Shown one piece after another: positions 1,691-63,090 of a DNA stretch of 64,000 nt. The DNA is from Nemertoderma westbladi (Eukaryota > Animalia > Xenacoelomorpha). The notes below the pieces were generated by a model. It was not told the DNA's origin. It searched no databases and worked only from the letters and a program-made list of their open reading frames with translations. The stretch covers positions 1-64,000 of the forward strand of contig JAUCBJ010009092.1 of assembly GCA_032718475.1 (NCBI GenBank). Reading direction: 5' to 3'. Both the position numbers and the translations under genes were made by a program. Each line of letters begins with the position of its first letter. The first letter of the stretch is position 1.

Positions 1691-4600
1691 GCCGGGGTAG
1701 CTCAGTTGGTTGAGCGCCGGGCTTGCAATCTTTTGGTTGTAGGTTCAGCCCCGCCTGGGTCCACTCAGCCTTTCATCCACTGGAGTCGATAAAATGAGTT
1801 CCAGTTTAATTACTGGCAGCAAAACAAGGGATAGGAGTAGCGGCCACTCCTACCTTCGGGTAGCAGATAAGAGTAGCGTCCACCCCTACCTTCAGGTAGC
1901 AGCTAGGAGTAGAGCCCACCCCTTCCTTCAGGTAGCAGATAGGAGTAGCGCCCACCCCTACCTTCGGGTAGCAGATAGGAGTAGTGCCCATCCCTACCTT
2001 CTGGTAGCAGATAGGAGTAGCGTCCACCCCTACATTCGGGTAGCAGATACGAGTAGCACCCACCCCTACCTTCGGGTAGCAGATAGGAGTAGCACCCACC
2101 CCTACCTTCGGGTAGCAGATAGGAGTAGCGCACATCCCTACATTCGGGTAGCAGATAGGAGTAGCGCCCACCCCTACCTTCGGGTAGCAGATAGGAGTAG
2201 TGCCCATCCCTACCTTCTGGTAGCAGATAGGAGTAGCGTCCACCCCTACATTCGGGTAGCAGATACGAGTAGCACCCACCCCTACCTTCGGGTAGCAGAT
2301 AGGAGTAGCACCCACACCTACCTTCGGGTAGCAGATAGGAGTAGCGCCCACCCCTACCTTCGGGTAGCAGATAGGAGTAGCGCCCACCCCTACCTTCGGG
2401 TAGCAGATAGGAGTAGCGTCCACCCCTACATTCGGGTAGCAGATACGAGTAGCACCCACCCCTACCTTCGGGTAGCAGATAGGAGTAGCACCCACACCTA
2501 CCTTCGGGTAGCAGATAGGAGTAGCGCCCACCCCTACCTTCGGGTAGCAGATAGGAGTAGCGCCCACCCCTACCTTCGGGTAGCAGATAGGAGTAGCGCC
2601 CACCCCTACCTTCGGGTAGCAGATAGGAGTAGCGCCCACCCCTACCTTCGGGTAGCAGATAGGAGTAGCGCCCACCCCTACCTTCGGGTAGCAGGAGTAG
2701 CGCCCACCCCTACCTTCGGGTAGCAGATACGAGTAGCGCTCACCCCTTCCTTGGGGTAGAAGATAAGTGTAGCGCCCACCCCCTCCTACCATCGGGTAGC
2801 AGATAGGAGTAGCACCCACACCTACCTTCGGGTAGCAGATAGGAGTAGTGCCCATCCCTACCTTCTGGTAGCAGATAGGAGTAGCGTCCACCCCTACATT
2901 CGGGTAGCAGATACGAGTAGCACCCACCCCTACCTTCGGGTAGCAGATAGGAGTAGCACCCACACCTACCTTCGGGTAGCAGATAGGAGTAGTGCCCATC
3001 CCTACCTTCTGGTAGCAGATAGGAGTAGCGTCCACCCCTACATTCGGGTAGCAGATACGAGTAGCACCCACCCCTACCTTCGGGTAGCAGATAGGAGTAG
3101 CGCCCACCCCTACCTTCGGGTAGCAGATAGGAGTAGTGCCCATCCCTACCTTCTGGTAGCAGATAGGAGTAGCGTCCACCCCTACATTCGGGTAGCAGAT
3201 ACGAGTAGCACCCACCCCTACCTTCGGGTAGCAGATAGGAGTAGTGCCCATCCCTACCTTCTGGTAGCAGATAGGAGTAGCGTCCACCCCTACATTCGGG
3301 TAGCAGATACGAGTAGCACCCACCCCTACCTTCGGGTAGCAGATAGGAGTAGCGCCCACCCCTACCTTCGGGTAGCAGATAGGAGTAGTGCCCATCCCTA
3401 CCTTCTGGTAGCAGATAGGAGTAGTGCCCATCCCTACCTTCGGGTAGCAGATAGGAGTAGTGCCCATCCCTACCTTCTGGTAGCAGATATGAGTAGTGCC
3501 CATCCCTACCTTCTGGTAGCAGATACGAGTAGCACCCACCCCTACCTTCGGGTAGCAGATAGGAGTAGCGCCCACCCCTACCTTCGGGTAGCAGATAGGA
3601 GTAGTGCCCATCCCTACCTTCGGGTAGCAGATAGGAGTAGTGCCCATCCCTACCTTCTGGTAGCAGATAGGAGTAGTGCCCATCCCTACCTTCTGGTAGC
3701 AGATACGAGTAGCACCCACCCCTACCTTCGGGTAGCAGATAGGAGTAGCGCCCACCCCTACCTTCGGGTAGCAGATAGGAGTAGCGCCCACCCCTACCTT
3801 CGGGTAGCAGATAGGAGTAGTGCCCATCCCTACCTTCTGGTAGCAGATAGGAGTAGCGTCCACCCCTACATTCGGGTAGCAGATACGAGTAGCACCCACC
3901 CCTACCTTCGGGTAGCAGATAGGAGTAGTGCCCATCCCTACCTTCTGGTAGCAGATAGGAGTAGCGTCCACCCCTACATTCGGGTAGCAGATACGAGTAG
4001 CACCCACCCCTACCTTCGGGTAGCAGATAGGAGTAGCGCCCACCCCTACCTTCGGGTAGCAGATAGGAGTAGTGCCCATCCCTACCTTCTGGTAGCAGAT
4101 AGGAGTAGCGTCCACCCCTACATTCGGGTAGCAGATACGAGTAGCACCCACCCCTACCTTCGGGTAGCAGATAGGAGTAGCACCCACACCTACCTTCGGG
4201 TAGCAGATAGGAGTAGCGCCCACCCCTACCTTCGGGTAGCAGATAGGAGTAGCGTCCACACCTACCTTCGGGTAGCAGATAGGAGTAGCGCCCACCCCTA
4301 CCTTCGGGTAGCAGATACGAGTAGCGCTCACCCCTTCCTTGGGGTAGAAGATAAGTGTAGCGCCCACCCCCTCCTACCATCGGGTAGCAGATAGGAGTAG
4401 CACCCACACCTACATTCGGGTAGCAGATAGGAGTAGCGCCCACCCCTACCTTCGGGTGGCAGATAGGAGTAGCACCCACCCCTTCCTTCAGGTAGCAGAT
4501 AGGAGTAGCGCCCACCCCTACCTTCGGGTAGCAGATAGGAGTAGCGCCCACACCTACCTTCGGGTAGCAGATACGAGTAGCGCTCACCCCTTCCTTGGGG

Positions 4601-5135
4601 TAGAAGATAAGTGTAGCGCCCACCCCCTCCTACCATCGGGTAGCAGATAGGAGTAGCACCCACACCTACATTCGGGTAGCAGATAGGAGTAGCGCCCACC
4701 CCTACCTTCGGGTAGCAGATAGGAGTAGCGCCCACCCCTACCTTCGGGTAGCAGATAGGAGTAGTGCCCATCCCTACCTTCTGGTAGCAGGTAGGAGTAG
4801 CGTCCACCCCTACATTCGGGTAGCAGATACGAGTAGCACCCACCCCTACCTTCGGGTAGCAGATAGGAGTAGCACCCACACCTACCTTCGGGTAGCAGAT
4901 AGGAGTAGCACCCACACCTACCTTCGGGTAGCAGATACGAGTAGCGCTCACCCCTTCCTTGGGGTAGAAGATAAGTGTAGCGCCCACCCCTACCTTCGGG
5001 TAGCAGATAGGAGTAGCGCCCACACCTACCTTCGGGTAGCAGATAGGAGTAGCGCCCACCCCTACCTTCGGGTAGCAGATATCGAAAGTGGAGTCTTTGG
5101 GTCGCCTCTGGCCTCGGCCGACTGTTTGCTTGGTT
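1691..5135 (+). mobile_element. tRNA-derived SINE with internally expanded 36-bp array
   Basis: Head GCCGGGGTAGCTCAGTTGGTTGAGCG...GGTTCAGCCCC is A-box/B-box-like. Central segment is CCACTCAGCCTTTCATCC...GATAAAATGAG. The 3' part resumes at ~5081 (atcgaaagtggagtc...ggccgactgtttgcttgg). Collinear with the compact copy at 24319-24553. Confidence 0.88.
1830..5080. repeat. 36-bp minisatellite GATAGGAGTAGCGCCCACCCCTACCTTCGGGTAGCA, ~90 copies
   Basis: Directly visible, with 12-aa periodicity in the ORF track. Variant units recur in ordered blocks. Confidence 0.97.
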
Positions 5136-7447
5136 GATCTACATCAATCGTATTTATTTTTCGATTGTGGAATAAAATTGAGATATCAATGGAACTTTAA
5201 TAATCTGCAGATAATCTTCCCCGCTCCCCCCCCCCCCCCCCAAAAAAAAAAAAAATTTAAAAATCCCGCCAGGCCAGCGATGTAAGAGAGGGTGTACAAA
5301 ATTTCGTAGCATTTGATTATTTTAGGAAATGGTGTAGAATTATCAGATTATCAGATTTTGTTTTTCCTAATTGCATGGCAAAAACGTTATTTTGCAATGA
5401 GTTTATCAACAATTTGTATTCGGCCGTTTTTGGTACCATGTAATGTAAGCAGTATCATTCAATAGTCAAACTTATGTTCAATAATTTTTCAATTTGACCG
5501 AGGTTGACTGAACAGGTATTTTGGCTGGACTATATTCAAGATGTTTGTAGTTAAGATCAGCTAGTAGTTAGTTATGCCATTGCTGTGTGAGAAGGACATT
5601 TTGCAGTGTGCTAATTGATCTGTGTGGTTCATTTTACGAACGAATGTAGTGAGTGGTCACGCGTAGTGATGGATTAAAGTAGCATTGTAAGTAGCATTTC
5701 TTGAGCTAACAATGTGTGCGGGCCCTTATAAAGTGTATCAGAAATATCTGCTGATGGATATTTCAGTTTTCAGAAGAATGCCAGGTTTTCACTAAAAGCC
5801 AGGTTTCAGAAGGCCTGAATCTAACCAAAACAATAACCGAATTTGTATCTGTACAGGTTATAAGATTGAATTTCAAATTCTTCATATATAAAATCCCAAT
5901 ATAAATTCGACCGATTTCTATATTTACTAGTTCCAGTCAGATGACAGACAGTCGCAGTCAGGCGTAATATTGAGTGCGAATTACAATAATTTTGTTTTTT
6001 CAAGTTAACAAAAGATACTTTAACTTTTAGTGTTGGCGGTATCCACACCTACTGTGCTATCGGCTACCGTACGCTCTGTATCCCGCTTACACCGCCGGCT
6101 ACGGTACGCTCTGTGATCTCCAATGTGTGTAATGTTTATTACCGGTACAGCACTGGCAGTCAGTCATGTTCCTGTTGTGTTTGTATGACGTGACCTCGTG
6201 GTATCGATCTAATATTGGTGATTCACATTGTAACCTCTATAATAGTATTAGCTATATCCAGAAGCCTACCGGTACAATAACAAAGAGATTACGCTTCAGT
6301 GAACACAAACCCCCCTGGGGAAAATGTTTGGAGAAGAGGAAAACCTAATGCATAATATATTCAGCCGCAAAACTGTCACTAAATGATATTATCTTTGATC
6401 AACTGCCTTTCAATTATACCAGTTGTGTAAGCAATCAGTGTGGAACACAACGAGGCCCATGTTTACCGACACTGATTTAACGAGTAGAAACGGAAATTGG
6501 TTGGCCGCTTCGAATGGAATTCTCGCTGATATAGTGCTGCCGAAATATTTGCTGAAGTCGAACTTCTAATCACAAAATGTTAATTGAACCAACTTTTCAA
6601 CATCATTTCTTCATTTGACTAAACTTAAGAACAAGCAGAAAACATTGTAGCCCTAATCGTTATATTGGACGGCTTCATTATTATTAGTGAATGTGTCAAT
6701 TACTTTTGCTGGATGGAGTGTGTGGATGTATTTATTTAGGTGAGTATTTAGGTGTGTTGTTGTACTATGCGTCGCCACACAATAATGATTATAATATTTG
6801 TGCAGCCAAAATAAATAATTATGGTAAACAAATAAAAAAGTTTCTGTTGATATGCTGAAATCTTTGTATAATTCTGGCTAAAACTTGCGGTCATGCATGG
6901 CATGGCACTGGATAGGACAGTGCCAAGCATACATGATACCGGTAATGTCTCCAACCAAACGCCAATATATACTAATGCACATCACATCAATACTAAAAAA
7001 TGTGGTGTAGAATGTGATAAAAGGATTCTAAATATGTAATAATGTCCAAATTTCTTTTAGCAATAATTATCATTCGCTGGAAGCCATGTATTCTACTTAA
7101 TTACTACCCAGTAACGTTCTGGAACAATTTGTTTATGTATGTGTAGCTACCAATAAATATGTTGAACAGGCATAACATTGTTGCACACCTACAAAATATC
7201 CTGGAATAAAGTGTCTTAATTCAGGTACCTGGAGCCACCAAACTTTGCTACAAATTTTAGTGAGATTACTTAGAATTTGAAATAGATATAGTTTCACCTC
7301 CCTCCTCCTCCGTGGTGGGTGAGCCAGAATTTTTATTTTTGCTTTCAATCTTTGAAAAAGGTATCTCCGACGATATTTCAATTATTCAGTTATTTCATTC
7401 ATATTATTATTCAGTTATTCAGTTATGCAGTTATTCTTTAACCTTAT

Positions 7448-12149: not shown

Positions 12150-13320
12150 ATAAATGTTCTAGAACATATTGCTGTACCCAAACATAAAAGAACAGCATTC
12201 TCTATGTGAAGTCTAATTCTGTATAGAAACAATTTGTTGTATATTTTGGAAGCTGCCAGAAATAGAGAAAGATCCAACGATAGTTTGTTATGGTATACCG
12301 AGGTCTCCTTTCTTAGGGAGAGGCTTTAGTTGACTTTTAGTCCATATTGGTAGTGGCTTTTCCCCTTTCAGCATCTGGTTGCAAACATCTAATAATAGTC
12401 TGTTCAGCACTCCTGTTTTACATACCTCTGCAAGGATTTCAACCAATCCACTCGCTTTATGATAGGACATGCTTTTTAATGCTTCTCTGGAGTTCGGCAG
12501 GTTGAAGCGTCTTGCAATATCTTTTCCTTGTAAGTAGGACTGAACTCGATGTTTGGTGGCTGCACTTATACTTTTACTTTAGGCCTACAGCTACACTACT
12601 GTAATAATGCTGCTAGTACGTAATGGTATGGGGTTCTGGATGTTCAAGCTGCTAAACTTTCTCAACTTTGTTGATGTTTTCGTCTGTTGGTTGTTCAGCT
12701 TCCTATATTGCATTATCAGTTCTAAATTTCTACCAGTCATAGTTGATTCGCTTGTTTGTCCTGGGTTTGCTGGCTCTCAAACTGAGTCTGATTCTGCAGT
12801 CACGATTATGAGGTCAGAAGCAATTATAGGTTGAACGAGTTGTATGCCTCGCAGTTAAATGTCCGCAGCTTCTCCTTGCTCTTTTCGAATGCGGTGTTAG
12901 TTAGTATCACTTCACATTTTTTCCTATTATCTAAGAGTAAGCACCCATTTCTGTTCTGCAGAAATGGGATTCTTTCTTTCACCCATTTCTTTTGATCGCA
13001 TTCAGATCACAAGCAATGACTTTAACAATTCGTTTCGGAATGACTTTATAAGTCCAGTCAGATCTTCTAGTCCTTGGCGACTGCTTGTTCTGGCTCTAAT
13101 GCATTGTTTGGACTGTAGCAACACATTAGTTGTCTTGTGATTCCTATTAAAATTGTTGTGGGGTTTTTGATCCTGGAATTTTTATATTTGATGGGGTTTA
13201 GTGTCAGAATTGCAAATGGACTTGGCAAAATTTCTACTCCACCAATTGATACATTGGCTGAATTGCTTTCTGCTGAATTTGCAGAACTGGGAATGGATGG
13301 ACGTTACAAACGACCATCCA
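12150..13320 (-). mobile_element. Heavily decayed RTE-like LINE (APE endonuclease to RT N-terminus), different subfamily
   Basis: Minus-strand remnants include KASG.VEI.AEV.KTG, WTKSQL.PLPKKGDL, CYSPNN and PIIASDL. Many stops and indels. Confidence 0.65.
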
Positions 13321-13327
13321 TGTTGAA

Positions 13328-13400
13328 TTACTGGGAGCAAACCTTGGGATAGGAGTAGCACCCGCGCGCCCCTACCTTCGGGTAGCAGCTATTGAACAGG
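13328..13400 (+). mobile_element. Partial copy of the SINE body (one 36-bp unit plus flanks)
   Basis: ctgggagcaaaccttgggataggagtagc...cctaccttcgggtagcagctattgaa matches 24441-24503. Confidence 0.75.
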
Positions 13401-14290: not shown

Positions 14291-14295
14291 CGTGT

Positions 14296-16131: not shown

Positions 16132-16263
16132 TCACCTACAATATCAAAGACGTAATATTCCACTGGGCCGCTGAGAATGCAATCTCGAGAGAAGATATTG
16201 AACTTGCTCAGTTTACTATCGAAGGGATCAAGTACAAAGAATACACAGCAAAGTTCCCCGCAG
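16132..16263 (+). CDS. Cys-loop receptor (GABA-A/glycine family) exon: loop B to loop C of the ligand-binding domain
   Basis: gttgtag|TC...GCAG|gtaatt, 132 nt, phase 1-1. Encodes xTYNIKDVIFHWAAENAISREDIELAQFTIEGIKYKEYTAKFPAG, aligning with GABA-A beta YGYTTDDIEFYW...IELPQF...FATG. Confidence 0.9.
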
Positions 16264-17257: not shown

Positions 17258-17410
17258 GGATCTACAGTGGACTAGAGGCAGTGTTTATATTTAAGAGGAG
17301 TGTTGGATTCTACCTAATGCAGACATATGTTCCAGCCTTTTTGTGCGTCGTTATTTCCTGTGTTAGTTTCTGGATTAGAAGAGATGCAACGCCAGCCCGG
17401 GCAAGTTTAG
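17258..17410 (+). CDS. Cys-loop receptor exon: loop C, M1 and start of M2
   Basis: ttttaag|GG...TTAG|gtgagt, 153 nt, phase 1-1. Encodes GIYSGLEAVFIFKRSVGFYLMQTYVPAFLCVVISCVSFWIRRDATPARASLG, including the PAR anion-selectivity motif. Confidence 0.95.
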
Positions 17411-24553: not shown

Positions 24554-24615
24554 ATATATCAATGAGATAAATTCGTAGTCATAAATCGAAAGGATTTCTG
24601 CGCTAACTCCATCCA

Positions 24616-27600: not shown

Positions 27601-28750
27601 AATAGCCATAGTTACATGAATAAACACAGTGCAAACAATTGTTACAGGAATAACCACAGTGCAAACAATTGTTACAGGAATATCCATAGTTTCAGGAATA
27701 ACCATAGTTCTATCAAGTGTTACAGGAATAGCCATAGTTACAGCGTTACAGGAATAACCACAGTGCAAACAATTGTTACAGGAATAACCACAGTGCAAAC
27801 AATTGTTACAGGAATAACCACAGTGCAAACAATTATTACAGGAATAACCACTGTTCTAACAATTGTTACAGGAAGAGCCATAGTTACAGGAATAACCACT
27901 GTTCTAACAATTGTTACAGGAAGAGAGAGCCATAGTTACAGGAATAAACACTGTTCCAACAATTGTTACAAGAATAACCACTGTTCTAACAATTATTACG
28001 GGAATAACCACTGTGCTACTGCTAACAATTGTTACAGGAATAACCATAGTTCTAACAATTTTTACAGTCACAACCACTGTTTTAACAATTGTTACAGGAA
28101 TAACCATAGTAATAACAATTATTACATTAATAACCACTGTTCTAACAATTGCTACAGGAATAGCGACAGTTCTAACAAAAGTTACAGGAATAACCACTCT
28201 GCTAACCATTGTTACAGGAATAACCATAGTTCTAACCATTGTTACAAGAATAACCATAGTTCTAACCATTGTTACAGGAATAACCATAGTTCTAACAATT
28301 GTTAAAGGAAAAACCGTAGTTCTAACCATTGTTACAGTAATAACCATAGTTCTAACCATTGTTACAAGAATAACCATAGTTCTAACCATTGTTACAGGAA
28401 TAACCACTGTTCTAACAATTGTTAAAGGAATAACCGTAGTTCTAACCATTGTTACAGGAATAACTATAGTTCTAACTATTGTTACAGGAATAACCATAGT
28501 TCTAACCATTGTTACAGGAATAACCATAGTTCTAACCATTGTTAAAGGAATAACCATAGTTCTAACCATTTTTAAAGGAATAACCGTAGTTACAGGAATA
28601 ACCATAGTTCTAACTATTGTTACAGGAATAACCACTGTGCTAACTCTTGTTACAGGAATAACCATAGTTACAGGAATAACCATAGCTCTAACTATTGTAC
28701 AGGAATAACCATAGTTACAGGAATAACTATAGTCCTAACTCTTGTTACAG
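24616..28750 (+). repeat. 30-bp minisatellite (with 18-bp variants) made of the splice acceptor plus the first codons of the M2 exon, roughly 140-150 units
   Basis: The unit TTACAG|GAATAACCACTGTTCTAACAATTG encodes (T)GITTVLTIV. The array runs seamlessly into the real exon at 28751. Confidence 0.96.
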
Positions 28751-28950
28751 GAATAACCACTGTGCTAACCATTGTTACGCTAATCTCTGGAACGAGTGGT
28801 TCTCTACCTCGTATCTCCTACATTAAAGCCATCGAGATCTACTTGTTTGTATGCCTCATATACGTGTTTGGGGCTTTGTTGGAGTTTGCCATTGTGTGTT
28901 ACTACAGTAAACCTCGATACCAAAGATATTTTGAAGAAAAAAGACGAACT
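28751..28950 (+). CDS. Cys-loop receptor exon: M2, M2-M3 loop and M3
   Basis: cttgttacag|GA...ACT|gtaagt, 200 nt, phase 1-0. Encodes (G)ITTVLTIVTLISGTSGSLPRISYIKAIEIYLFVCLIYVFGALLEFAIVCYYSKPRYQRYFEEKRRT. Confidence 0.95.
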
Positions 28951-29683: not shown

Positions 29684-29746
29684 AAAAAAAAGAAAAGAAC
29701 AATGACCGGTAACCCGTATGATGATGATAATTCAGATTGCCCAGCG
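29684..29746 (+). CDS. Cys-loop receptor exon: intracellular M3-M4 loop (small symmetric exon)
   Basis: tgtttttacgcag|AAA...GCG|gtgagt, 63 nt, phase 0-0. Encodes KKKKRTMTGNPYDDDNSDCPA. Supported by splice sites and frame only. Confidence 0.72.
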
Positions 29747-34091: not shown

Positions 34092-34431
34092 CATACTTTG
34101 GTCAGTAATCCATCCTCCCATACTTTGGTCAGTAATCCATCCTTCCATACTTTGGTCAGTAATCCATCCTCCCATACTTTGGTCAGTAATCCATCCTCCC
34201 ATACTTTGGTCAGTAATCCATCCTCCCATACTTTGGTCAGTAATCCATCCTCCCTTACTTTGGTCAGTAATCCATCCTCCCATACTTTGGTCAGTAATCC
34301 ATCCTCCCATACTTTGGTCAGTAATCCATCCTCCCATACTTTGGTCAGTAATCCATCCTCCCATACTTTGGTCAGTAATCCATCCTCCCATACTTTGGTC
34401 AGTAATCCATCCTCCCATACTTTGGTCAGTA
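34092..34431. repeat. 27-bp minisatellite CATACTTTGGTCAGTAATCCATCCTCC, ~12.5 copies
   Basis: Directly visible and contiguous with the adjacent decayed LINE. Confidence 0.95.
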
Positions 34432-45500: not shown

Positions 45501-48500
45501 CAGTGGGCCTCTCTGTATTGGAATCTCTTCAGTGGGCCTCTCTGTATTGGAATCTCTTCAGTGGGCCTCTCTGTATTGGAATCTATTCAGTGGGCCTCTC
45601 TGTATTGGAATCTCTTCAGTGGGCCTCTCTGTATTGGAATCTCTTCAGTGGGCCTCTCTGTATTGGAATCTCTTCAGTGGGCCTCTCTGTATTGGAATCT
45701 CTTCAGTGGGCCTCTCTGTATTGGAATCTATTCAGTGGGCCTCTCTGTATTGGAATCTATTCAGTGGGCCTCTCTGTATTGGAATCTATTCAGTGGGCCT
45801 CTCTGTATTGGAATCTCTTCAGTGGGCCTCTCTGTATTGGAATCTATTCAGTGGGCCTCTCTGTATTGGAATCTATTCAGTGGGCCTCTCTGTATTGGAA
45901 TCTATTCAGTGGGCCTCTCTGTATTGGAATCTATTCAGTGGGCCTCTCTGTATTGGAATCTATTCAGTGGGCCTCTCTGTATTGGAATCTATTCAGTGGG
46001 CCTCTCTGTATTGGAATCTATTCAGTGGGCCTCTCTGTATTGGAATCTATTCAGTGGGCCTCTCTGTATTGGAATCTCTTCAGTGGGCCTCTCTGTATTG
46101 GAATCTCTTCAGTGGGCCTCTCTGTATTGGAATCTCTTCAGTGGGCCTCTCTGTATTGGAATCTATTCAGTGGGCCTCTCTGTATTGGAATCTATTCAGT
46201 GGGCCTCTCTGTATTGGAATCTATTCAGTGGGCCTCTCTGTATTGGAATCTCTTCAGTGGGCCTCTCTGTATTGGAATCTCTTCAGTGGGCCTCTCTGTA
46301 TTGGAATCTCTTCAGTGGGCCTCTCTGTATTGGAATCTATTCAGTGGGCCTCTCTGTATTGGAATCTATTCAGTGGGCCTCTCTGTATTGGAATCTATTC
46401 AGTGGGCCTCTCTGTATTGGAATCTCTTCAGTGGGCCTCTCTGTATTGGAATCTATTCAGTGGGCCTCTCTGTATTGGAATCTCTTCAGTGGGCCTCTCT
46501 GTATTGGAATCTCTTCAGTGGGCCTCTCTGTATTGGAATCTCTTCAGTGGGCCTCTCTGTATTGGAATCTCTTCAGTGGGCCTCTCTGTATTTGGAATCT
46601 CTTCAGTGGGCCTCTCTGTATTGGAATCTCTTCAGTGGGCCTCTCTGTATTGGAATCTATTCAGTGGGCCTCTCTGTATTGGAATCTATTCAGTGGGCCT
46701 CTCTGTATTGGAATCTATTCAGTGGGCCTCTCTGTATTGGAATCTCTTCAGTGGGCCTCTCTGTATTGGAATCTCTTCAGTGGGCCTCTCTGTATTGGAA
46801 TCTATTCAGTGGGCCTCTCTGTATTGGAATCTATTCAGTGGGCCTCTCTGTATTGGAATCTATTCAGTGGGCCTCTCTGTATTGGAATCTATTCAGTGGG
46901 CCTCTCTGTATTGGAATCTATTCAGTGGGCCTCTCTGTATTGGAATCTATTCAGTGGGCCTCTCTGTATTGGAATCTCTTCAGTGGGCCTCTCTGTATTG
47001 GAATCTATTCAGTGGGCCTCTCTGTATTGGAATCTATTCAGTGGGCCTCTCTGTATTGGAATCTATTCAGTGGGCCTCTCTGTATTGGAATCTATTCAGT
47101 GGGCCTCTCTGTATTGGAATCTATTCAGTGGGCCTCTCTGTATTGGAATCTATTCAGTGGGCCTCTCTGTATTGGAATCTCTTCAGTGGGCCTCTCTGTA
47201 TTGGAATCTCTTCAGTGGGCCTCTCTGTATTGGAATCTCTTCAGCGGGCCTCTCTGTATTGGAATCTCTTCAGTGGGCCTCTCTGTATTGGAATCTATTC
47301 AGTGGGCCTCTCTGTATTGGAATCTATTCAGTGGGCCTCTCTGTATTGGAATCTCTTCAGTGGGCCTCTCTGTATTGGAATCTCTTCAGTGGGCCTCTCT
47401 GTATTGGAATCTCTTCAGTGGGCCTCTCTGTATTGGAATCTCTTCAGTGGGCCTCTCTGTATTGGAATCTATTCTGTGGGCCTCTCTGTATTGGAATCTC
47501 TTCAGTGGGCCTCTCTGTATTGGAATCTATTCAGTGGGCCTCTCTGTATTGGAATCTCTTCAGTGGGCCTCTCTGTATTGGAATCTCTTCAGTGGGCCTC
47601 TCTGTATTGGAATCTCTTCAGTGGGCCTCTCTGTATTGGAATCTCTTCAGTGGGCCTCTCTGTATTGGAATCTCTTCAGTGGGCCTCTCTGTATTAGAAT
47701 CTCTTCAGTGGGCCTCTCTGTATTGGAATCTCTTCAGTGGGCCTCTCTGTATTGGAATCTATTCAGTGGGCCTCTCTGTATTGGAATCTCTTCAGTGGGC
47801 CTCTCTGTATTGGAATCTATTCAGTGGGCCTCTCTGTATTGGAATCTCTTCAGTGGGCCTCTCTGTATTGGAATCTCTTCAGTGGGCCTCTCTGTATTGG
47901 AATCTCTTCAGTGGGCCTCTCTGTATTGGAATCTATTCAGTGGGCCTCTCTGTATTGGAATCTATTCAGTGGGCCTCTCTGTATTGGAATCTCTTCAGTG
48001 GGCCTCTCTGTATTGGAATCTATTCAGTGGGCCTCTCTGTATTGGAATCTCTTCAGTGGGCCTCTCTGTATTTGGAATCTCTTCAGTGGGCCTCTCTGTA
48101 TTGGAATCTCTTCAGTGGGCCTCTCTGTATTGGAATCTATTCAGTGGGCCTCTCTGTATTTGGAATCTCTTCAGTGGGCCTCTCTGTATTGGAATCTCTT
48201 CAGTGGGCCTCTCTGTATTGGAATCTATTCAGTGGGCCTCTCTGTATTGAAATCTCTTCAGTGGGCCTCTCTGTATTGGAATCTCTTCAGTGGGCCTCTC
48301 TGTATTGGAATCTCTTCAGTGGGCCTCTCTGTATTGGAATCTCTTCAGTGGGCCTCTCTGTATTGGAATCTCTTCAGTGGGCCTCTCTGTATTTGGAATC
48401 TCTTCAGTGGGCCTCTCTGTATTGGAATCTATTCAGTGGGCCTCTCTGTATTGGAATCTCTTCAGTGGGCCTCTCTGTATTGGAATCTCTTCAGTGGGCC

Positions 48501-51500
48501 TCTCTGTATTTGGAATCTCTTCAGTGGGCCTCTCTGTATTGGAATCTCTTCAGTGGGCCTCTCTGTATTAGAATCTCTTCAGTGGGCCTCTCTGTATTAG
48601 AATCTCTTCAGTGGTCCTCTCTGTATTGGAATCTCTTCAGTGGGCCTCTCTGTATTAGAATCTCTTCAGTGGGCCTCTCTGTATTTGGAATCTCTTCAGT
48701 GGGCCTCTCTGTATTGGAATCTCTTCAGTGGGCCTCTCTGTATTGGAATCTCTTCAGTGGGCCTCTCTGTATTGGAATCTCTTCAGTGGGCCTCTCTGTA
48801 TTAGAATCTCTTCAGTGGGCCTCTCTGTATTGGAATATATTCAGTGGGCCTCTCTGTATTGGAATCTCTTCAGTGGGCCTCTCTGTATTGGAATCTATTC
48901 AGTGGTCCTCTCTGTATTGGAATCTCTTCAGTGGGCCTCTCTGTATTAGAATCTCTTCAGTGGGCCTCTCTGTATTGGAATATATTCAGTGGGCCTCTCT
49001 GTATTGGAATCTCTTCAGTGGGCCTCTCTGTATTAGAATCTCTTCAGTGGTCCTCTCTGTATTGGAATCTCTTCAGTGGGCCTCTCTGTATTAGAATCTC
49101 TTCAGTGGGCCTCTCTGTATTGGAATATATTCAGTGGGCCTCTCTGTATTGGAATCTATTCAGTGGGCCTCTCTGTATTGGAATCTCTTCAGTGGGCCTC
49201 TCTGTATTGGAATCTCTTCAGTGGGCCTCTCTGTATTAGAATCTCTTCAGTGGGCCTCTCTGTATTGGAATATATTCAGTGGGCCTCTCTGTATTGGAAT
49301 CTCTTCAGTGGGCCTCTCTGTATTGGAATCTATTCAGTGGGCCTCTCTGTATTGGAATCTATTCAGTGGGCCTCTCTGTATTTGGAATCTCTTCAGTGGG
49401 CCTCTCTGTATTGGAATCTCTTCAGTGGGCCTCTCTGTATTGGAATCTCTTCAGTGGGCCTCTCTGTATTAGAATCTCTTCAGTGGGCCTCTCTGTATTG
49501 GAATCTATTCAGTGGGCCTCTCTGTATTGGAATCTCTTCAGTGGGCCTCTCTGTATTAGAATCTCTTCAGTGGGCCTCTCTGTATTGGAATCTATTCAGT
49601 GGGCCTCTCTGTATTTGGAATCTCTTCAGTGGGCCTCTCTGTATTGGAATCTCTTCAGTGGGCCTCTCTGTATTAGAATCTCTTCAGTGGGCCTCTCTGT
49701 ATTGGAATATATTCAGTGGGCCTCTCTGTATTGGAATCTCTTCAGTGGGCCTCTCTGTATTGCAATCTCTTCAGTGGGCCTCTCTGTATTAGAATCTCTT
49801 CAGTGGGCCTCTCTGTATTGGAATCTATTCAGTGGGCCTCTCTGTATTGGAATCTATTCAGTGGTCCTCTCTGTATTGGAATCTCTTCAGTGGGCCTCTC
49901 TGTATTAGAATCTCTTCAGTGGGCCTCTCTGTATTGGAATATATTCAGTGGGCCTCTCTGTATTGGAATCTATTCAGTGGTCCTCTCTGTATTGGAATCT
50001 CTTCAGTGGGCCTCTCTGTATTAGAATCTCTTAAGTGGGCCTCTCTGTATTGGAATATATTCAGTGGGCCTCTCTGTATTGGAATCTCTTCAGTGGGCCT
50101 CTCTGTATTGGAATCTCTTCAGTGGGCCTCTCTGTATTGGAATCTCTTCAGTGGGCCTCTCTGTATTGGAATCTCTTCAGTGGGCCTCTCTGTATTAGAA
50201 TCTCTTCAGTGGGCCTCTCTGTATTGGAATATATTCAGTGGGCCTCTCTGTATTGGAATCTCTTCAGTGGGCCTCTCTGTATTGGAATCTCTTCAGTGGG
50301 CCTCTCTGTATTGGAATATATTCAGTGGGCCTCTCTGTATTGGAATCTCTTCAGTGGGCCTCTCTGTATTGGAATCTCTTCAGTGGGCCTCTCTGTATTG
50401 GAATCTATTCAGTGGGCCTCTCTGTATTGGAATCTCTTCAGTGGGCCTCTCTGTATTGGAATCTCTTCAGTGGGCCTCTCTGTATTGGAATCTCTTCAGT
50501 GGGCCTCTCTGTATTGGAATCTCTTCAGTGGGCCTCTCTGTATTGGAATCTATTCAGTGGGCCTCTCTGTATTGGAATCTCTTCAGTGGGCCTCTCTGTA
50601 TTGGAATCTCTTCAGTGGGCCTCTCTGTATTGGAATCTCTTCAGTGGGCCTCTCTGTATTAGAATCTCTTCAGTGGGCCTCTCTGTATTAGAATCTCTTC
50701 AGTGGGCCTTTCTGTATTTGAATCTATTCAGTGGGCCTCTCTGTATTTGGAATCTCTTCAGCGGGCCTCTCTGTATTGGAATCTCTTCAGCGGGCCTCTC
50801 TGTATTGGAATCTCTTCAGCGGGCCTCTCTGTATTGGAATCTATTCAGTGGGCCTCTCTGTATTTGGAATCTCTTCAGTGGGCCTCTCTGTATTGGAATC
50901 TCTTCAGTGGGCCTCTCTGTATTGGAATCTCTTCAGTGGGCCTCTCTGTATTAGAATCTCTTCAGTGGGCCTCTCTGTATTGGAATCTATTCAGTGGGCC
51001 TCTCTGTATTTGGAATCTCTTCAGTGGGCCTCTCTGTATTGGAATCTCTTCAGTGGGCCTCTCTGTATTAGAATCTCTTCAGTGGGCCTCTCTGTATTGG
51101 AATCTATTCAGTGGGCCTCTCTGTATTGGAATCTATTCAGTGGGCCTCTCTGTATTGGAATCTATTCAGTGGGCCTCTCTGTATTGGAATCTCTTCAGTG
51201 GGCCTCTCTGTATTGGAATCTCTTCAGTGGGCCTCTCTGTATTGGAATCTATTCAGTGGGCCTCTCTGTATTAGAATCTCTTCAGTGGGCCTCTCTGTAT
51301 TGGAATCTATTCAGTGGGCCTCTCTGTATTGGAATCTATTCAGTGGGCCTCTCTGTATTGGAATCTATTCAGTGGGCCTCTCTGTATTAGAATCTCTTCA
51401 GTGGGCCTCTCTGTATTGGAATCTATTCAGTGGGCCTCTCTGTATTGGAATCTATTCAGTGGGCCTCTCTGTATTGGAATCTATTCAGTGGGCCTCTCTG

Positions 51501-54500
51501 TATTGGAATCTCTTCAGTGGGCCTCTCTGTATTAGAATCTCTTCAGTGGGCCTCTCTGTATTGGAATCTATTCAGTGGGCCTCTCTGTATTAGAATCTCT
51601 TCAGTGGGCCTCTCTGTATTGGAATCTATTCAGTGGGCCTCTCTGTATTGGAATCTATTCAGTGGGCCTCTCTGTATTGGAATCTATTCAGTGGGCCTCT
51701 CTGTATTAGAATCTCTTCAGTGGGCCTCTCTGTATTGGAATCTATTCAGTGGGCCTCTCTGTATTGGAATCTATTCAGTGGGCCTCTCTGTATTGGAATC
51801 TATTCAGTGGGCCTCTCTGTATTGGAATCTCTTCAGTGGGCCTCTCTGTATTGGAATCTATTCAGTGGGCCTCTCTGTATTGGAATCTATTCAGTGGGCC
51901 TCTCTGTATTGGAATCTCTTCAGTGGGCCTCTCTGTATTGGAATCTCTTCAGTGGGCCTCTCTGTATTAGAATCTCTTCAGTGGGCCTCTCTGTATTGGA
52001 ATCTATTCAGTGGGCCTCTCTGTATTGGAATCTCTTCAGTGGGCCTCTCTGTATTGGAATCTCTTCAGTGGGCCTCTCTGTATTGGAATCTATTCAGTGG
52101 GCCTCTCTGTATTGGAATCTCTTCAGTGGGCCTCTCTGTATTGGAATCTCTTCAGTGGGCCTCTCTGTATTGGAATCTATTCAGTGGGCCTCTCTGTATT
52201 AGAATCTCTTCAGTGGGCCTCTCTGTATTGGAATCTATTCAGTGGGCCTCTCTGTATTGGAATCTCTTCAGTGGGCCTCTCTGTATTGGAATCTCTTCAG
52301 TGGGCCTCTCTGTATTAGAATCTCTTCAGTGGGCCTCTCTGTATTGGAATCTATTCAGTGGGCCTCTCTGTATTGGAATCTATTCAGTGGGCCTCTCTGT
52401 ATTGGAATCTATTCAGTGGGCCTCTCTGTATTAGAATCTCTTCAGTGGGCCTCTCTGTATTGGAATCTATTCAGTGGGCCTCTCTGTATTGGAATCTCTT
52501 CAGTGGGCCTCTCTGTATTTGGAATCTCTTCAGTGGGCCTCTCTGTATTTGGAATCTCTTCAGTGGGCCTCTCTGTATTGGAATCTCTTCAGTGGGCCTC
52601 TCTGTATTTGGAATCTCTTCAGTGGGCCTCTCTGTATTGGAATCTATTCAGTGGGCCTCTCTGTATTGGAATCTATTCAGTGGGCCTCTCTGTATTGGAA
52701 TCTCTTCAGTGGGCCTCTCTGTATTGGAATCTATTCAGTGGGCCTCTCTGTATTGGAATCTATTCAGTGGGCCTCTCTGTATTGGAATCTATTCAGTGGG
52801 CCTCTCTGTATTAGAATCTCTTCAGTGGGCCTCTCTGTATTGGAATCTATTCAGTGGGCCTCTCTGTATTGGAATCTATTCAGTGGGCCTCTCTGTATTG
52901 GAATCTATTCAGTGGGCCTCTCTGTATTGGAATCTCTTCAGTGGGCCTCTCTGTATTAGAATCTCTTCAGTGGGCCTCTCTGTATTGGAATCTATTCAGT
53001 GGGCCTCTCTGTATTAGAATCTCTTCAGTGGGCCTCTCTGTATTGGAATCTATTCAGTGGGCCTCTCTGTATTGGAATCTATTCAGTGGGCCTCTCTGTA
53101 TTGGAATCTATTCAGTGGGCCTCTCTGTATTAGAATCTCTTCAGTGGGCCTCTCTGTATTGGAATCTATTCAGTGGGCCTCTCTGTATTGGAATCTATTC
53201 AGTGGGCCTCTCTGTATTGGAATCTATTCAGTGGGCCTCTCTGTATTGGAATCTCTTCAGTGGGCCTCTCTGTATTGGAATCTATTCAGTGGGCCTCTCT
53301 GTATTGGAATCTATTCAGTGGGCCTCTCTGTATTGGAATCTCTTCAGTGGGCCTCTCTGTATTGGAATCTCTTCAGTGGGCCTCTCTGTATTAGAATCTC
53401 TTCAGTGGGCCTCTCTGTATTGGAATCTATTCAGTGGGCCTCTCTGTATTGGAATCTCTTCAGTGGGCCTCTCTGTATTGGAATCTCTTCAGTGGGCCTC
53501 TCTGTATTGGAATCTATTCAGTGGGCCTCTCTGTATTGGAATCTCTTCAGTGGGCCTCTCTGTATTGGAATCTCTTCAGTGGGCCTCTCTGTATTGGAAT
53601 CTATTCAGTGGGCCTCTCTGTATTAGAATCTCTTCAGTGGGCCTCTCTGTATTGGAATCTATTCAGTGGGCCTCTCTGTATTGGAATCTCTTCAGTGGGC
53701 CTCTCTGTATTGGAATCTCTTCAGTGGGCCTCTCTGTATTAGAATCTCTTCAGTGGGCCTCTCTGTATTGGAATCTATTCAGTGGGCCTCTCTGTATTGG
53801 AATCTATTCAGTGGGCCTCCCTGTATTGGAATCTATTCAGTGGGCCTCTCTGTATTAGAATCTCTTCAGTGGGCCTCTCTGTATTGGAATCTATTCAGTG
53901 GGCCTCTCTGTATTTGGAATCTCTTCAGTGGGCCTCTCTGTATTTGGAATCTCTTCAGTGGGCCTCTCTGTATTTGGAATCTCTTCAGTGGGCCTCTCTG
54001 TATTGGAATCTCTTCAGTGGGCCTCTCTGTATTTGGAATCTCTTCAGTGGGCCTCTCTGTATTGGAATCTATTCAGTGGGCCTCTCTGTATTGGAATCTA
54101 TTCAGTGGGCCTCTCTGTATTTGGAATCTCTTCAGTGGGCCTCTCTGTATTTGGAATCTCTTCAGTGGGCCTCTCTGTATTGGAATCTCTTCAGTGGGCC
54201 TCTCTGTATTTGGAATCTCTTCAGTGGGCCTCTCTGTATTTGGAATCTCTTCAGTGGGCCTCTCTGTATTTGGAATCTCTTCAGTGGGCCTCTCTGTATT
54301 TGGAATCTCTTCAGTGGGCCTCTCTGTATTGGAATCTCTTCAGTGGGCCTCTCTGTATTTGGAATCTCTTCAGTGGGCCTCTTTGTATTGGAATCTATTC
54401 AGTGGGCCTCTCTGTATTGGAATCTCTTCAGTGGGCCTCTCTGTATTGGAATCTCTTCAGTGGGCCTCTCTGTATTGGAATCTCTTCAGTGGGCCTCTCT

Positions 54501-54575
54501 GTATTGGAATCTATTCAGTGGGCCTCTCTGTATTGGAATCTATTCAGTGGGCCTCTCTGTATTGGAATATATTCG
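36503..54575. repeat. 18-kb satellite of the 29-bp unit GTGGGCCTCTCTGTATTGGAATCT(C/A)TTCA, ~620 copies
   Basis: Directly visible and very homogeneous, with a frequent C/A dimorphism and occasional 30-bp units. Confidence 0.98.
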
Positions 54576-57607: not shown

Positions 57608-58768
<1,161 letters not shown>

Positions 58769-58867: not shown

Positions 58868-59015
58868 TTTAGTGAATATTATTATTTAGAGTTATTTGGT
58901 GTAGAATGCATATTAGTGAATATTATTATTCAGAGTTGTTTGGTGTAGTATGCATATTAGTGGATATTATTATTTAGAGTTGTTTGGTGTAGTACCGGTA
59001 TGCATATTAGTGGAT
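58868..59015. repeat. About three copies of a ~44-bp unit in the probable HPD 3' UTR
   Basis: ttagtg(a/g)atattattatttagagttgtttggtgtagtatgcata is repeated. A candidate AATAAA lies at 59202-59207. Confidence 0.75.
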
Positions 59016-60550
59016 AGTGGTTCTACTTTAGTTTATTTCTATGATCAAGTCATTTATAGGATTTAGTTCTACTGTATTTATGTGATCATAGTTTTAACCA
59101 TTAGGCCTACTAGAAAAATTATAAAAATAGACGGAAAGGAAATATATTTCTCCGATTTATTTCAAGTGAGCTAAATTCAGATATTGATGGTGTTGAATGA
59201 GAATAAAGATTATAAAAATTGAGTGCAAAAATTAATTAATACATTCAGACATAATAAGTGATATCTGAACAATAAAAATCGTGATAGAAAGTGCAGATCT
59301 TTATTATTTATACTTTTTCTTTATACTACTTTCTAGCTAACTTATTTCTCCTTTATATTTTTGCATAAAGATTTATGTTCACTGTTTCTCAACGGAACCA
59401 AATAAGAAAGTGTTATAATCTCCATTGGATATACGAAAACCGTCATTCCCAAAACATCAATGAGTGTTGCGTTCAGTTGGCGTTGAACTGATAGTAAAAA
59501 ACGGAGTTTCATTTCATAAGAAAGTGGAGAGTTTCTGAAAAAGAATCTTTCAAAGATTAGGCCGACTGACAGGCAGACACGGGGTTGAGAAAGTGGTACC
59601 CGTAGCTATGCTCACATAATTTCGTGGCTCGCCCCTTGTTACTATTACGTATATATGTAGAGCTTTTGATATAATATGTAGGTTTGTAGGTGTGGGACAT
59701 GATGGAAGGGTTATTGTTGAGGTATTATAATAATTCATAATATTTTTTCTAATTTATACCGAAATATAACTTTTACACATTTTGAATGATATTTCATAAA
59801 ATAAATTCAGAAGGCGTTGTATTTCAGATTTAAAATTATTAGAAATAGCTTTTTGTAATTAGTTACAGTTGACGGAAATTAGATTTTAAATCACCGATTG
59901 TTGAATTTATAGAACTCGTTTTCTTTGCTTCCTCTAAAAACCTGATTATTCTTAAAAAATTAAATACGCCTTCATAGAAAAAAAAAGTCAATTCGAAATA
60001 TTGACTGGAAGTGATTCTTTCCGAGACTTTTTCAATTAACATTAAAAACATTCGTGTAGGCCTATCAAATTAATTTTTTATATACTTGTGTTATTGGTGA
60101 CGTTGGTAATATTGTTTACTGCTGTAATTTAATACCTAATTAATATTAATATGTCAAAAATAAAGTAATGATATTATTCATTTATAAAACAAGTTGTTTC
60201 AGTTGTTTTGCTATTTATCCCGGTATCGTTTTTCACCGGTAAATTTATGATTTTATATTATAATAATGATTTTATAAGCGGTTAATTAAGATTTAGAAAC
60301 ACTTCGGTTTCAGAGCTTGTGATTGGTTAATTTCGGCTAAAATTCGGAATTCAGAAATCGAATTCTCAAAAAGAATGTTAAAATTTTGGAATAAAATAAA
60401 CAAGTTAAAAATGAAATTTAATAATTTACTTTAAGGCGTCAATCTTGGAAACGCTATGTAAATGAACGTAAATGTGATATATATCCTAGAGCAATGTATA
60501 TACGAGTTAATTCAGTATATACCATGTGGATTACAGCATAAATAAAAATA

Positions 60551-63090
60551 TATCGATGTCGGCACATTGCTTTATCGATGTCGGCACATTGCTTTATCGA
60601 TGTCGGCACATTGCTTTATCGATATCGGCACATTGCTTTATCGATGTCGGCACATTGCTTTATCGATGTCGGCACATTGCTTTATCGATGTCGGCACATT
60701 GCTTTATCGATGTCGGCACATTGCTTTATCGATGTCGGCACATTGCTTTATCGATGTCGGCACATTGCTTTATCGATGTCGGCACATTGCTTTATCGATG
60801 TCGGCACATTGCTTTATCGATATCGGCACATTGCTTTATCGATGTCGGCACATTGCTTTATCGATGCCGGCACATTGCTTTATCGATGTCGGCACATTGC
60901 TTTATCGATGTCGGCACATTGCTTTATCGATGTCGGCACATTGCTTTATCGATGTCGGCACATTGCTTTATCGATGTCGGCACATTGATTTATCGATGTC
61001 GGCACATTGCTTTATCGATGTCGGCACATTGCTTTATCGATGTCGGTTAATTGCTTTATCGATGTCGGCACATTGCTTTGTCGATGTCGGCACATTGCTT
61101 TATCGATGTCGGCATATTGCTTTATCGATGTCGGCACATTGATTTATCGATGTCGGCACATTGATTTATCGATGTCGGCACATTGCTTTATCGATGTTAG
61201 CACATTGCTTTATCGATGTCGGCACATTGCTTTATCGATGTCGGCACATTGCTTTATCGATGTCGGCACATTACTTTATCGATGTCGGCACATTACTTTA
61301 TCGATGTCGGCACATTGCTTTATCGATGTCGGCACATTGCTTTATCGATGTCGGCACATTGCTTTATCGATGTCGGCACATTGCTTTATCGATGTCGGCA
61401 CATTGCTTTATCGATGTCGGCACATTGCTTTATCGATGTCGGCACATTGCTTTATCGATGTCGGCACATTGCTTTATCGATGTCGGCACATTGCTTTATC
61501 GATGTCGGCACATTGCTTTATCGATGTCGGCACATTGCTTTATCGATGTCGGCACATTGCTTTATCGATGTCGGCACATTGCTTTATCGATGTCGGCACA
61601 TTGCTTTATCGATGTCGGCACATTGCTTTATCGATGTCGGTTAATTGCTTTATCGATGTCGGCTAATTGCTTTATCGATGTCGGCACATTGCTTTATCGA
61701 TGTCGGCATATTGTTTTATCGATGTCGGCACATTGCTTTATCGATGTCGGCATATTGCTTTATCGCTGTCGGCACATTGATTTATCGATGTCGGCACATT
61801 GATTTATCGATGTCGGCACATTGCTTTATCGATGTTAGCACATTGCTTTATCGATGTCGGCACATTGCTTTATCGATGTCGGCACATTGCTTTATCGATG
61901 TCGGCACATTGCTTTATCGATGTCGGCACATTGCTTTATCGATGTCGGCACATTGCTTTATCGATGTCGGCACATTGTTTTATCGATGTCGGCACATTGC
62001 TTTATCGATGTCGGCACATTGCTTTATCGATGTCGGCACATTGCTTTATCGATGTCGGCACATTGCTTTATCGATGTCGGCACATTGCTTTATCGATGTC
62101 GGCACATTGCTTTATCGATGTCGGCACATTGCTTTATCGATGTCGGCATATTGCTTTATCGATGTCGGCACATTGATTTATCGATGTCGGCACATTGATT
62201 TATCGATGTCGGCACATTGCTTTATCGATGTTAGCACATTGCTTTATTGATGTCGGCACATTGCTTTATCGATGTCGGCACATTGCTTTATCGATGTCGG
62301 CACATTGCTTTATCGATGTCGGCACATTGCTTTATCGATGTCGGCACATTGATTAATCGATGTCGGCACATTGCTTTATCGATGTCGGCACATTGATTTA
62401 TCGATGTCGGCACATTGCTTTATCGATGTCGGCACATTGCTTTATCGATGTCGGCACATTGCTTTATCGATATCGGCACATTGCTTTATCGATGTCGGCA
62501 CATTGCTTTATCGATGTCGGCACATTGCTTTATCGATGTCGGCACATTGCTTTATCGATGTCGGAACATTGCTTTATCGATATCGGCACATTGCTTTATC
62601 GATGTCGGCACATTGCTTTATCGATGTCGGCACATTGCTTTATCGGTGTCGGCACATTGCTTTATCGATGTCGGCACATTGCTTTATCGATGTCGGCACA
62701 TTGCTTTATCGATGTCGGCACATTGCTTTATCGATGTCGGCACATTGTTTTATCGATATCGGCACATTGCTTTATCGATGTCGGCACATTGCTTTATCGA
62801 TGTCGGCACATTGCTTTATCGATGTCGGCACATTGCTTTATCGATGTCGGCACATTGCTTTATCGATGTCGGCACATTGCTTTATCGATGTCGGCACATT
62901 GCTTTATCGATGTCGGCACATTGCTTTATCGATGTCGGCACATTGCTTTATCGATGTCGGCACATTGCTTTATCGGTGTCGGTTAATTGCTTTATCGATG
63001 TCGGCATATTGCTTTATCGATGTCGGCACATTGCTTTATCGATGTCGGCATATTGCTTTATCGATGTCGGCACATTGATTTATCGATATC
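60551..63090. repeat. 22-bp CpG-rich minisatellite TATCGATGTCGGCACATTGCTT, ~115 copies
   Basis: Directly visible. Its right end overlaps the final codons and stop of the minus-strand CDS. Confidence 0.97.

What the first reader, a model, noticed from the sequence alone, without database searches (positions are those of the whole stretch)
1830..63090. Tandem arrays are repeatedly seeded in place from local sequence, often at functional boundaries
Seen: unrelated units come from a SINE body (36 bp), an acceptor/exon junction (30 bp), LINE sequence (27 bp), a CDS end with its stop codon (22 bp) and unique flank (29 bp). In several cases short microhomology brackets the seed: attattacag/attgttacgc, tatcgat/tatcgat, and tcgtgggcc/tcgtcgccc. 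The arrays cover about 30 kb of the 64 kb. Inference: this lineage has a very active local amplification process (slippage, microhomology-primed rolling circle, or re-replication) rather than dispersing satellite families, and it remodels genes without breaking them.
Basis: partly seen in the sequence, partly recalled or inferred. Interest (0 to 1): 0.72.

Follow-up and report, generated by a model that had tools for sequence, protein, structure and literature searches.

The report
Locally born minisatellites, one splice "mirage"
Eight unrelated tandem repeats fill nearly half of this stretch of an invertebrate genome, most likely each grown from a short piece of its own neighbourhood; the oddest copies the splice signal and start of an ion-channel exon about 145 times, a repeat type already described in lancelets.

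Summary
The arrays are real: eight unrelated units, 30.7 of 64 kb, with one 18-kb array supplying 59% of that. No unit recurs elsewhere in the window except the 36-bp unit, which lies once in each of two other SINE copies. The 30-bp array is a 'mirage': 145 acceptor-plus-exon-head units in the M2 intron of a glycine-receptor-like channel gene. 123 keep the AG, 3 stay in frame, and only the last gives the native protein. An RNA-like run shows the upstream exons spliced to one dominant exon head, but I could not read which. The 22-bp array contains the last codons of a DUF4614 gene; its stop may have been made by the duplication itself. Brackets of 7-10 bp fit three arrays; three others do not fit well. 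Duplicated blocks of 0.7-1.4 kb point to growth by recombination-type copying. Only 2 of 8 arrays touch a gene boundary (nominal P about 0.006, post hoc; 0.12 without the stop case). Local birth between short repeats, TE-derived minisatellites and mirages are all published. A special lineage-wide process is unproven because no genome was available.

The parts
804..949 (.).
1688..5148 (+). tRNA-headed SINE copy whose internal 36-bp segment is expanded to 90 units (1830-5081)
   Evidence: 88-90% identity to the single-unit copy on both sides of the array; unit list
13317..13396 (+). Partial SINE copy with one 36-bp unit
16132..16263 (+). Exon A of a glycine/GABA-A-receptor-like channel gene
   Evidence: X4 contig stops at 16132 and 16264; AG/GT borders
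17258..17410 (+). Exon B: M1 and first part of M2, ending in the phase-1 donor before GITTVLT
   Evidence: Pfam Neur_chan_memb; PDB GlyR/GABA-A hits, E 1e-11; X4 contig 17256-17411
24316..24563 (+). SINE copy with a single 36-bp unit (24458-24493), the unexpanded state
   Evidence: tRNA-like head 24319-24384, 19.4 bits, below the Rfam gathering score of 29
24613..28780 (+). 30-bp 'mirage' array: 28 nt of exon head plus the acceptor AG; 145 units, 123 with AG; first acceptor before 24625, last before 28751
28751..28950 (+). Exon C: rest of M2, M2-M3 loop, M3; intact, its exact 28-nt head occurs once in the window
   Evidence: best PDB hit glycine receptor alpha-1, E 4.5e-17
29684..29746 (+). 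Likely exon D (63 nt, in frame, AG/GT); inferred from sequence only
30515..32540 (.).
32913..33287 (+). Last exon with M4 and stop
   Evidence: Pfam Neur_chan_memb positions 152-233
34092..34432 (-). 27-bp array, 12.6 copies, 98% identical, at the broken end of a LINE fragment (34431-34791)
36505..54574 (.). 29-bp array, about 622 units, 18 kb, intergenic; first and last units share a rare variant; a 38-unit run recurs 49 units away
57626..58768 (+). Intronless HPPD (4-hydroxyphenylpyruvate dioxygenase) gene
58869..59016 (.).
60551..63087 (-). 22-bp array, 115 units; the gene-side unit holds the last codons of the DUF4614 gene; stop at 63060-63058
63058..64000 (-). 3' part of a DUF4614 gene, open for at least 313 codons
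   Evidence: Pfam DUF4614, E 2.9e-14; 62 homologs

Best explanation
The window holds eight unrelated minisatellites, each likely born as a short tandem duplication of local DNA (in about half the cases likely helped by a 7-10 bp imperfect direct repeat) and then likely grown by unequal exchange or gene conversion that copies blocks of many units. Shown: the units are unrelated, three match their own neighbourhood (SINE body, acceptor plus exon head, end of a coding sequence), and three arrays hold multi-unit duplicated blocks beyond shuffle or chance. Inferred: seeds fall more or less anywhere, and those at an acceptor or at a coding-sequence end survive because one intact copy stays joined to the gene (the last copy at an acceptor, the first at a stop). 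In the channel gene the spliceosome likely skips 122 decoy AGs and takes the last one, through pairing with the donor 200 nt downstream and a better pyrimidine tract; any product from the 120 acceptors that meet a stop would likely be degraded.
For: Units unrelated; no 14-mer of the 27-, 29-, 44- or 22-bp arrays (12-mer for the 9-bp array) elsewhere in the window; the 46-bp array hits only poly-C tracts and the 30-bp array one isolated 14-mer. Unexpanded SINE copies show the seed of the 36-mer. The 30-bp unit is the exon's first 28 nt plus AG; 10 nt before the first AG match exon nt 19-28 at 9 of 10, a match seen at 3 of 33,314 non-array sites at 30-nt spacing. Such seeds are common over spacings of 20-50 nt: 247 sites at 9/10 and 273 perfect 7-mers. 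Block duplication: 438 bp exact at 882-bp offset in the 30-bp array; 28 informative matches against a shuffle maximum of 7 (20 shuffles) in the 29-bp array; 7 against 4 (100 shuffles) in the 36-bp array. The array is not coding: 12 synonymous and 38 non-synonymous codon variants, including stops. The last acceptor has 7 of 10 pyrimidines plus a branch-like motif; 7 of 123 reach 7, and 83 have 5. Run X4 has exon-bounded contigs at depth 61-77; its 210-nt exon-B contig equals the simulated length for one acceptor and not for any of five mixtures (187-201 nt). Published precedents: PMC3087553, PMC3902484, PMC3389668, PMC6947457.
Against: Two boundary hits among eight seeds exceed uniform seeding at nominal P 0.006 with 13 boundaries, 0.03 with 30; purifying selection alone cannot raise that rate above the neutral one. 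The 36- and 46-bp arrays have only about 4-bp brackets and the 27-bp array a 17-bp overhang. The 22- and 46-bp arrays show at most marginal block structure (4 against shuffle maximum 3; 3 against 3). The flank before the first acceptor resembles exon nt 9-28 over about 20 nt with a 6-nt insertion, so it may be a decayed partial unit and not the ancestral intron end. The contig length fits 'first acceptor only' as well as 'last only', and the first acceptor scores as well as the last on pyrimidines. X4 is another sample, with an unknown array allele. The array load (48% of the window) is high, and I have no genome baseline.
Confidence: 0.75

Rival explanations
1. Targeted seeding: this lineage has an unusually active amplification process that prefers splice sites and stop codons (for example transcription- or splicing-linked DNA breaks repaired by microhomology-primed copying).
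For: 2 of 8 seeds overlap one of 13 placed boundaries, expected 0.13, nominal P 0.006. 48% of the window is array. Unchecked AI notes report several mirages within single genes or windows of other invertebrates.
Against: 6 of 8 arrays and 94% of the 18-kb-plus-SINE bulk lie away from boundaries; 11 of 13 boundaries have no array. The window was picked for this pattern. The stop may be a product of the duplication, which leaves 1 of 8 (P 0.12).
Confidence: 0.12
2. Some arrays are members of dispersed families carried by mobile elements: the SINE has a built-in repeat hot spot, and the 9-, 27- and 46-bp arrays belong to LINE or MITE copies that are expanded at many loci.
For: A loose end in X4 shows a head-to-tail junction of the 36-bp unit in a variant absent from the window. 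The bin holding the partial SINE has summed depth 11,000-29,000 against 15-46 for single-copy DNA. The 9- and 27-bp arrays abut LINE fragments. Multilocus TE-derived repeats are published (PMC3389668).
Against: It cannot explain the 30- and 22-bp arrays, whose units come from single-copy genes. Two of three SINE copies in the window have one unit. The X4 junction could be another allele of the 1830-5081 array.
Confidence: 0.3
3. The acceptor array damages or diversifies the channel: splicing goes to the first or to nearby acceptors, giving truncated messages or pores with a 10- or 16-residue M2 insertion.
For: The first acceptor has a branch-like motif at -22 and 7 of 10 pyrimidines, like the last. 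Acceptors at 28703 and 28721 are open and in frame. The contig length does not exclude 'first only'.
Against: All downstream exons are open and align to glycine receptors. One exon head dominates in X4. Published mirages and the F7 donor VNTR splice normally (PMC3087553, PMC3902484, PMC1557585).
Confidence: 0.08
4. Array lengths are partly assembly artefacts (over-expanded or mis-joined repeats).
For: A 38-unit identical run 49 units apart in the 18-kb array and a 438-bp exact duplicate in the 30-bp array could be mis-joins. No reads were laid across any array.
Against: Units carry many interspersed, non-periodic variants (34 types in the 29-bp array, 23 in the 36-bp array), with regional gradients and distinct end units, which collapse or stutter would not make. 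Unique flanks match DNA contigs without differences where laid.
Confidence: 0.07

Closest known systems
Amphioxus 'mirage' minisatellites (Adh3, globins BflGb6/BflGb9, troponin C, PGBD5); passages of PMC3087553 and PMC3902484 read; the original Adh3 paper (PMC117041) is not held and is known only through these
   Same: Tandem copies of intron end plus exon start; many but not all keep the AG; the true exon is intact at the array's end; units of 10-160 bp reported.
   Different: 145 units against 3-7 for the globin and PGBD5 cases I read (the Adh3 copy number I did not see). Units are in-frame multiples of 3 from the pore-lining M2 helix. The host is not a lancelet by HPPD placement, which is unresolved.
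Minisatellite birth between 5-10 bp direct repeats (Haber and Louis 1998) and slippage at non-contiguous repeats with an incomplete last unit; read as passages of PMC3389668 and PMC6947457, originals not seen
   Same: [quoted passage not shown]
   Different: Three arrays do not fit the bracket size; one array reaches 18 kb, well above the roughly 100 units that the review gives for minisatellites.
TE-derived minisatellites (23% of human minisatellites; Alu and B1 SINE cases); passages of PMC3389668 and PMC6947457
   Same: The 36-bp array expands an internal segment of a tRNA-headed SINE; the 27-bp array abuts and resembles LINE sequence.
   Different: Only the host and the element family differ.
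Human F7 intron 7 37-bp VNTR; abstract and outline of PMC1557585
   Same: An array of functional-looking splice sites of which only the one next to the exon is used.
   Different: It copies donors and the first is chosen; here acceptors are copied and the last must be chosen, over 122 others.

Membership tests
Mirage minisatellite (30-bp array) | Tandem unit spans an intron-exon boundary of the host gene | tested here: met
   Unit = exon nt 1-28 plus acceptor AG; 145 units
Mirage minisatellite (30-bp array) | Many but not all units keep the splice signal | tested here: met
   123 of 145 keep AG; 76 of 123 have a branch-like motif
Mirage minisatellite (30-bp array) | Authentic exon intact at the end of the array | tested here: met
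   28751-28950 open, glycine-receptor hit E 4.5e-17
Mirage minisatellite (30-bp array) | Normal splicing is not disturbed | tested here: inconclusive
Mirage minisatellite (30-bp array) | Length differs between haplotypes or cells | not testable with these tools
   Only contigs are held, and the read tool does not take long repeats
Direct-repeat-born minisatellite (Haber-Louis) | 5-10 bp direct repeat brackets the seed: 30-, 22- and 29-bp arrays | tested here: met
   9/10, 7/7 and 7/9; the last with one extra base at the unit junction
Direct-repeat-born minisatellite (Haber-Louis) | 5-10 bp direct repeat brackets the seed: 36-, 46- and 27-bp arrays | tested here: not met
   About 4 bp (3 of 4 in the single-unit SINE), about 4 bp, and a 17-bp overhang
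TE-derived minisatellite | Array overlaps a TE by at least one unit, or the unit matches the TE | tested here: met
   36-bp unit present once in two other SINE copies; the 27-bp unit aligns to LINE only with gaps
Dispersed satellite family | Same unit forms arrays at unlinked loci | tested here: inconclusive
   Not within the window; one X4 contig hints at it for the 36-mer; no genome held; 0 metagenome matches
MetaSINE superfamily (the SINE) | 66-bp Meta domain after a tRNA-derived head | not tested
   Resemblance is recalled only; the consensus is in a figure not held; tRNA-like head below the gathering score

The most novel reading that the evidence does not exclude
This long-branch animal has a genome-wide amplifier that seeds kilobase arrays preferentially at splice sites and stops, and its giant M2 mirage forces backward, exon-anchored choice of one acceptor among 123, with leak-through giving channels with a duplicated pore helix, while array turnover rewrites the last codons of the DUF4614 protein.
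Probability: 0.08. Interest if true: 0.7.

Novelty: new member of a known kind. Interest (0 to 1): 0.27.

Why it matters
As it stands this is a dense, tidy example of known repeat biology. The one useful piece is the 145-unit acceptor array: a natural test of how a 3' splice site is chosen, since a forward scan from the first branch point would stop 4.1 kb too early. It would matter more if a genome-wide count showed seeds enriched at gene boundaries, because PMC3087553 calls the mechanism of mirage birth unclear.

Tried and rejected
No whole genome is held, so locus-uniqueness and enrichment could not be tested genome-wide. No RNA holder was listed by record; X4 was judged RNA-like only from exon-bounded contigs. 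The letters joined to donor 17410 were not obtained, which leaves the acceptor in use open. Homolog searches with exon C and with the DUF4614 end found nothing in the word-index search; the HMMER search found 62 DUF4614 relatives. The protein atlas did not answer. Host placement failed: HPPD is 57-66% identical to the 120 listed hits and sits on a long, unsupported branch in a tree of 46 rows, 45 picked from those 120; a look at xenacoelomorph genome papers was a guess and settled nothing. Upstream channel exons were not found in 98 plus-strand frames of 32 or more codons in 950-16131, but known exon A was missed as well, so the test is weak. No Rfam family at gathering score and no tRNA gene. 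The SINE unit had 0 matches in metagenome contigs. The 30-bp array as a coding repeat was rejected: stops, three frameshifts and 38 non-synonymous of 50 codon variants. A monomer rolling circle as sole growth mode was rejected: variants are interspersed. Brackets as proof of mechanism were treated with caution, because any array ends in a partial unit. Two paper searches for genome-wide or decoy-acceptor studies returned 0; their term sets were narrow, so this shows little. PMC117041 and PMC1783408 are not held. Look-ups of earlier findings by place, by SINE sequence and by two word sets returned nothing.
Full report
Setting. The window is animal DNA of about 38% GC outside the arrays. It holds the 3' five exons of a glycine/GABA-A-receptor-like channel gene, an intronless HPPD gene, the 3' end of a DUF4614 gene on the minus strand, and many LINE, SINE and MITE-like pieces. 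No genome is held. The host is unplaced: HPPD is 57-66% identical to all 120 listed hits and falls on a long unsupported branch.

Observation. Collapsed to one unit each, the window is 33,557 bp. The six large units share at most 4-6 exact bases. Outside its own array, no repeated word of the 9-, 27-, 29-, 44- or 22-bp arrays occurs in the window; the 46-bp array hits only poly-C tracts, the 30-bp array one isolated 14-mer, and the 36-bp array two other SINE copies.

The 36-bp array. It sits inside a SINE (1688-5148) that matches the copy at 24316-24563 at 88-90% on both sides; that copy and a partial one at 13317-13396 have a single unit. The seed is therefore shown. The bracket is only about 4 bp. 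Run X4 has a loose end with a head-to-tail junction of this unit in a variant not found in the window. The full 30 letters may rest on one contig, and it could be another allele of this locus, but it warns that the SINE may expand the same segment elsewhere.

The 30-bp array. Exon B ends in a phase-1 donor at 17410 and exon C starts at 28751; the join restores M2 as in glycine receptors, exon B aligning up to residue 278-279 and exon C from 280 of the zebrafish chain. The unit is the exon's first 28 nt plus AG. Of 145 units in acceptor register, 123 keep the AG. Only 28703 (+16 residues), 28721 (+10) and 28751 (native) are open to the end of the exon; a 1-base deletion in unit 142 shifts the frame of the 26 units before it, and all earlier ones meet stops. 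That deletion could be an assembly error; if so more upstream acceptors would be in frame. The exact native head occurs once. The commonest unit differs from it at two synonymous sites, but variants overall are 12 synonymous and 38 non-synonymous, so the array is not coding. The 10 nt before the first AG match exon nt 19-28 at 9 of 10, which only 3 of 33,314 non-array sites do at this spacing. The simplest history is slippage between those two words, then growth, which pushed the working exon 4.1 kb downstream (inferred). A caveat: the flank resembles the exon over about 20 nt with an insertion and may be a decayed unit. The last acceptor has 7 of 10 pyrimidines and a branch-like motif; so has the first, while 83 of 123 have 5.

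RNA. No run is on record as RNA, but X4 has contigs that stop at the borders of exons A and B at depth 61-77, with no cover in the bin between them. Its exon-B contig is 210 nt. A simulation with 31-letter words gives 210 nt if one acceptor is used (last only or first only) and 187-201 nt for five mixtures. So one exon head dominates; contigs drop rare forms, and the letters were not read. The last acceptor is the likely one because only it gives the native protein.

The 22-bp array. The DUF4614 frame runs into the array and stops at 63060-63058. The first residues encoded by the unit fit the pattern of the homologs' last helix, so the seed is likely coding sequence. The tail after the conserved motif is 32 residues; the median is 38 among the 50 of 62 homologs in which my pattern matched (range 14-63, some being intron read-throughs). 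The stop's third base lies outside the 7-bp bracket, and collapsing to one unit gives a 64-residue tail. Either the far end unit changed one base after amplification, or the duplication created the stop and cut about 6 residues. The coding unit carries a variant found 9 times in the array and encodes Ser where the commonest unit gives Ala, the residue that most homologs have there; array turnover may thus have changed the protein (inferred).

Other arrays. The 29-bp array has first and last units of a rare shared type and a 7-of-9 bracket 28 bp apart, so one base was added at the junction. The 27-bp array continues a LINE fragment, aligns to another LINE copy only with gaps, and the LINE does not resume after it. 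The 46-, 9- and 44-bp arrays lie in an intron, after a LINE tail and in a likely 3' UTR.

Growth. Blocks are duplicated: 438 bp exact at 882-bp offset; a 38-unit run 49 units apart, 28 informative matches against a shuffle maximum of 7; and a 9-unit run 19 units apart, 7 against 4. The 22- and 46-bp arrays show little or none. This favours unequal exchange or conversion over unit-by-unit slippage or a monomer circle (inferred); re-replication of a block is not excluded.

Boundaries. Two of 8 seeds overlap one of 13 placed boundaries; uniform seeding expects 0.13 (P of two or more 0.006; 0.03 with 30 boundaries; P of one or more 0.12). The window was chosen for this pattern and one of the two cases may have made its own boundary, so enrichment is neither shown nor excluded.

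What is known. Passages of PMC3087553 describe amphioxus 'mirages', including an acceptor-plus-exon type, with normal splicing and an unclear mechanism. Passages of PMC3902484 add troponin C and PGBD5. Passages of PMC3389668 and PMC6947457 give the direct-repeat model and report 23% of human minisatellites as TE-derived. The abstract of PMC1557585 describes the F7 donor VNTR. Passages of PMC4824008 and PMC10565955 added nothing decisive. Supplements were not read; the MetaSINE consensus and the globin mirage alignments there could bear on the SINE name and on unit counts. Seven unchecked AI notes report mirages in other invertebrates, up to 67 copies; they are leads, not support.

Verdict. The boundary preference and the special lineage process are unproven. 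New member of a known kind; interest 0.27.

Noticed in passing
window 6162-6688: A 527-nt contig of the RNA-like run X4 matches here without differences at depth 77, the same depth as the channel's exon-B contig; no long reading frame on either strand. Possibly an untranslated exon or a nested transcript.
   Followed up: partly
window 57626-58768 and 63058-64000: HPPD is intronless and the DUF4614 end is one frame of over 310 codons (GC3 0.60 and 0.55), next to a channel gene with introns over 11 kb. Several DUF4614 homolog fragments seem to break at an intron after the conserved motif, which this gene lacks.
   Followed up: partly
window 5226, 14618, 29085, 30796, 31042, 32488, 35085, 35871, 54634, 56785: Ten poly-G or poly-C tracts of 14-27 bases against one poly-A tract of 12 or more; three lie inside the 46-bp array.
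   Followed up: no
window 18278-23905: Nested and inverted LINE fragments, 94-96% identical to each other and to 1-804, flanked by a 52-bp direct repeat (18197-18248 and 23854-23905, 98%), inside the same intron as the mirage.
   Followed up: no
window 14296-14546, 13940-13992, 55077-55359: Long inverted repeats: a 251-bp near-perfect palindrome (98.8%), a short one, and a decayed 290-bp MITE-like one.
   Followed up: no
window 9874-10302 and 19720-21188: Decayed fragments of a second non-LTR element type, one copy inserted among the LINE fragments; family not named by Pfam.
   Followed up: no
window 28626-28750: A more pyrimidine-rich variant before the AG occurs only before acceptors 28656 and 28751, the end nearest the exon; possibly selected to strengthen the working acceptor.
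   Followed up: partly
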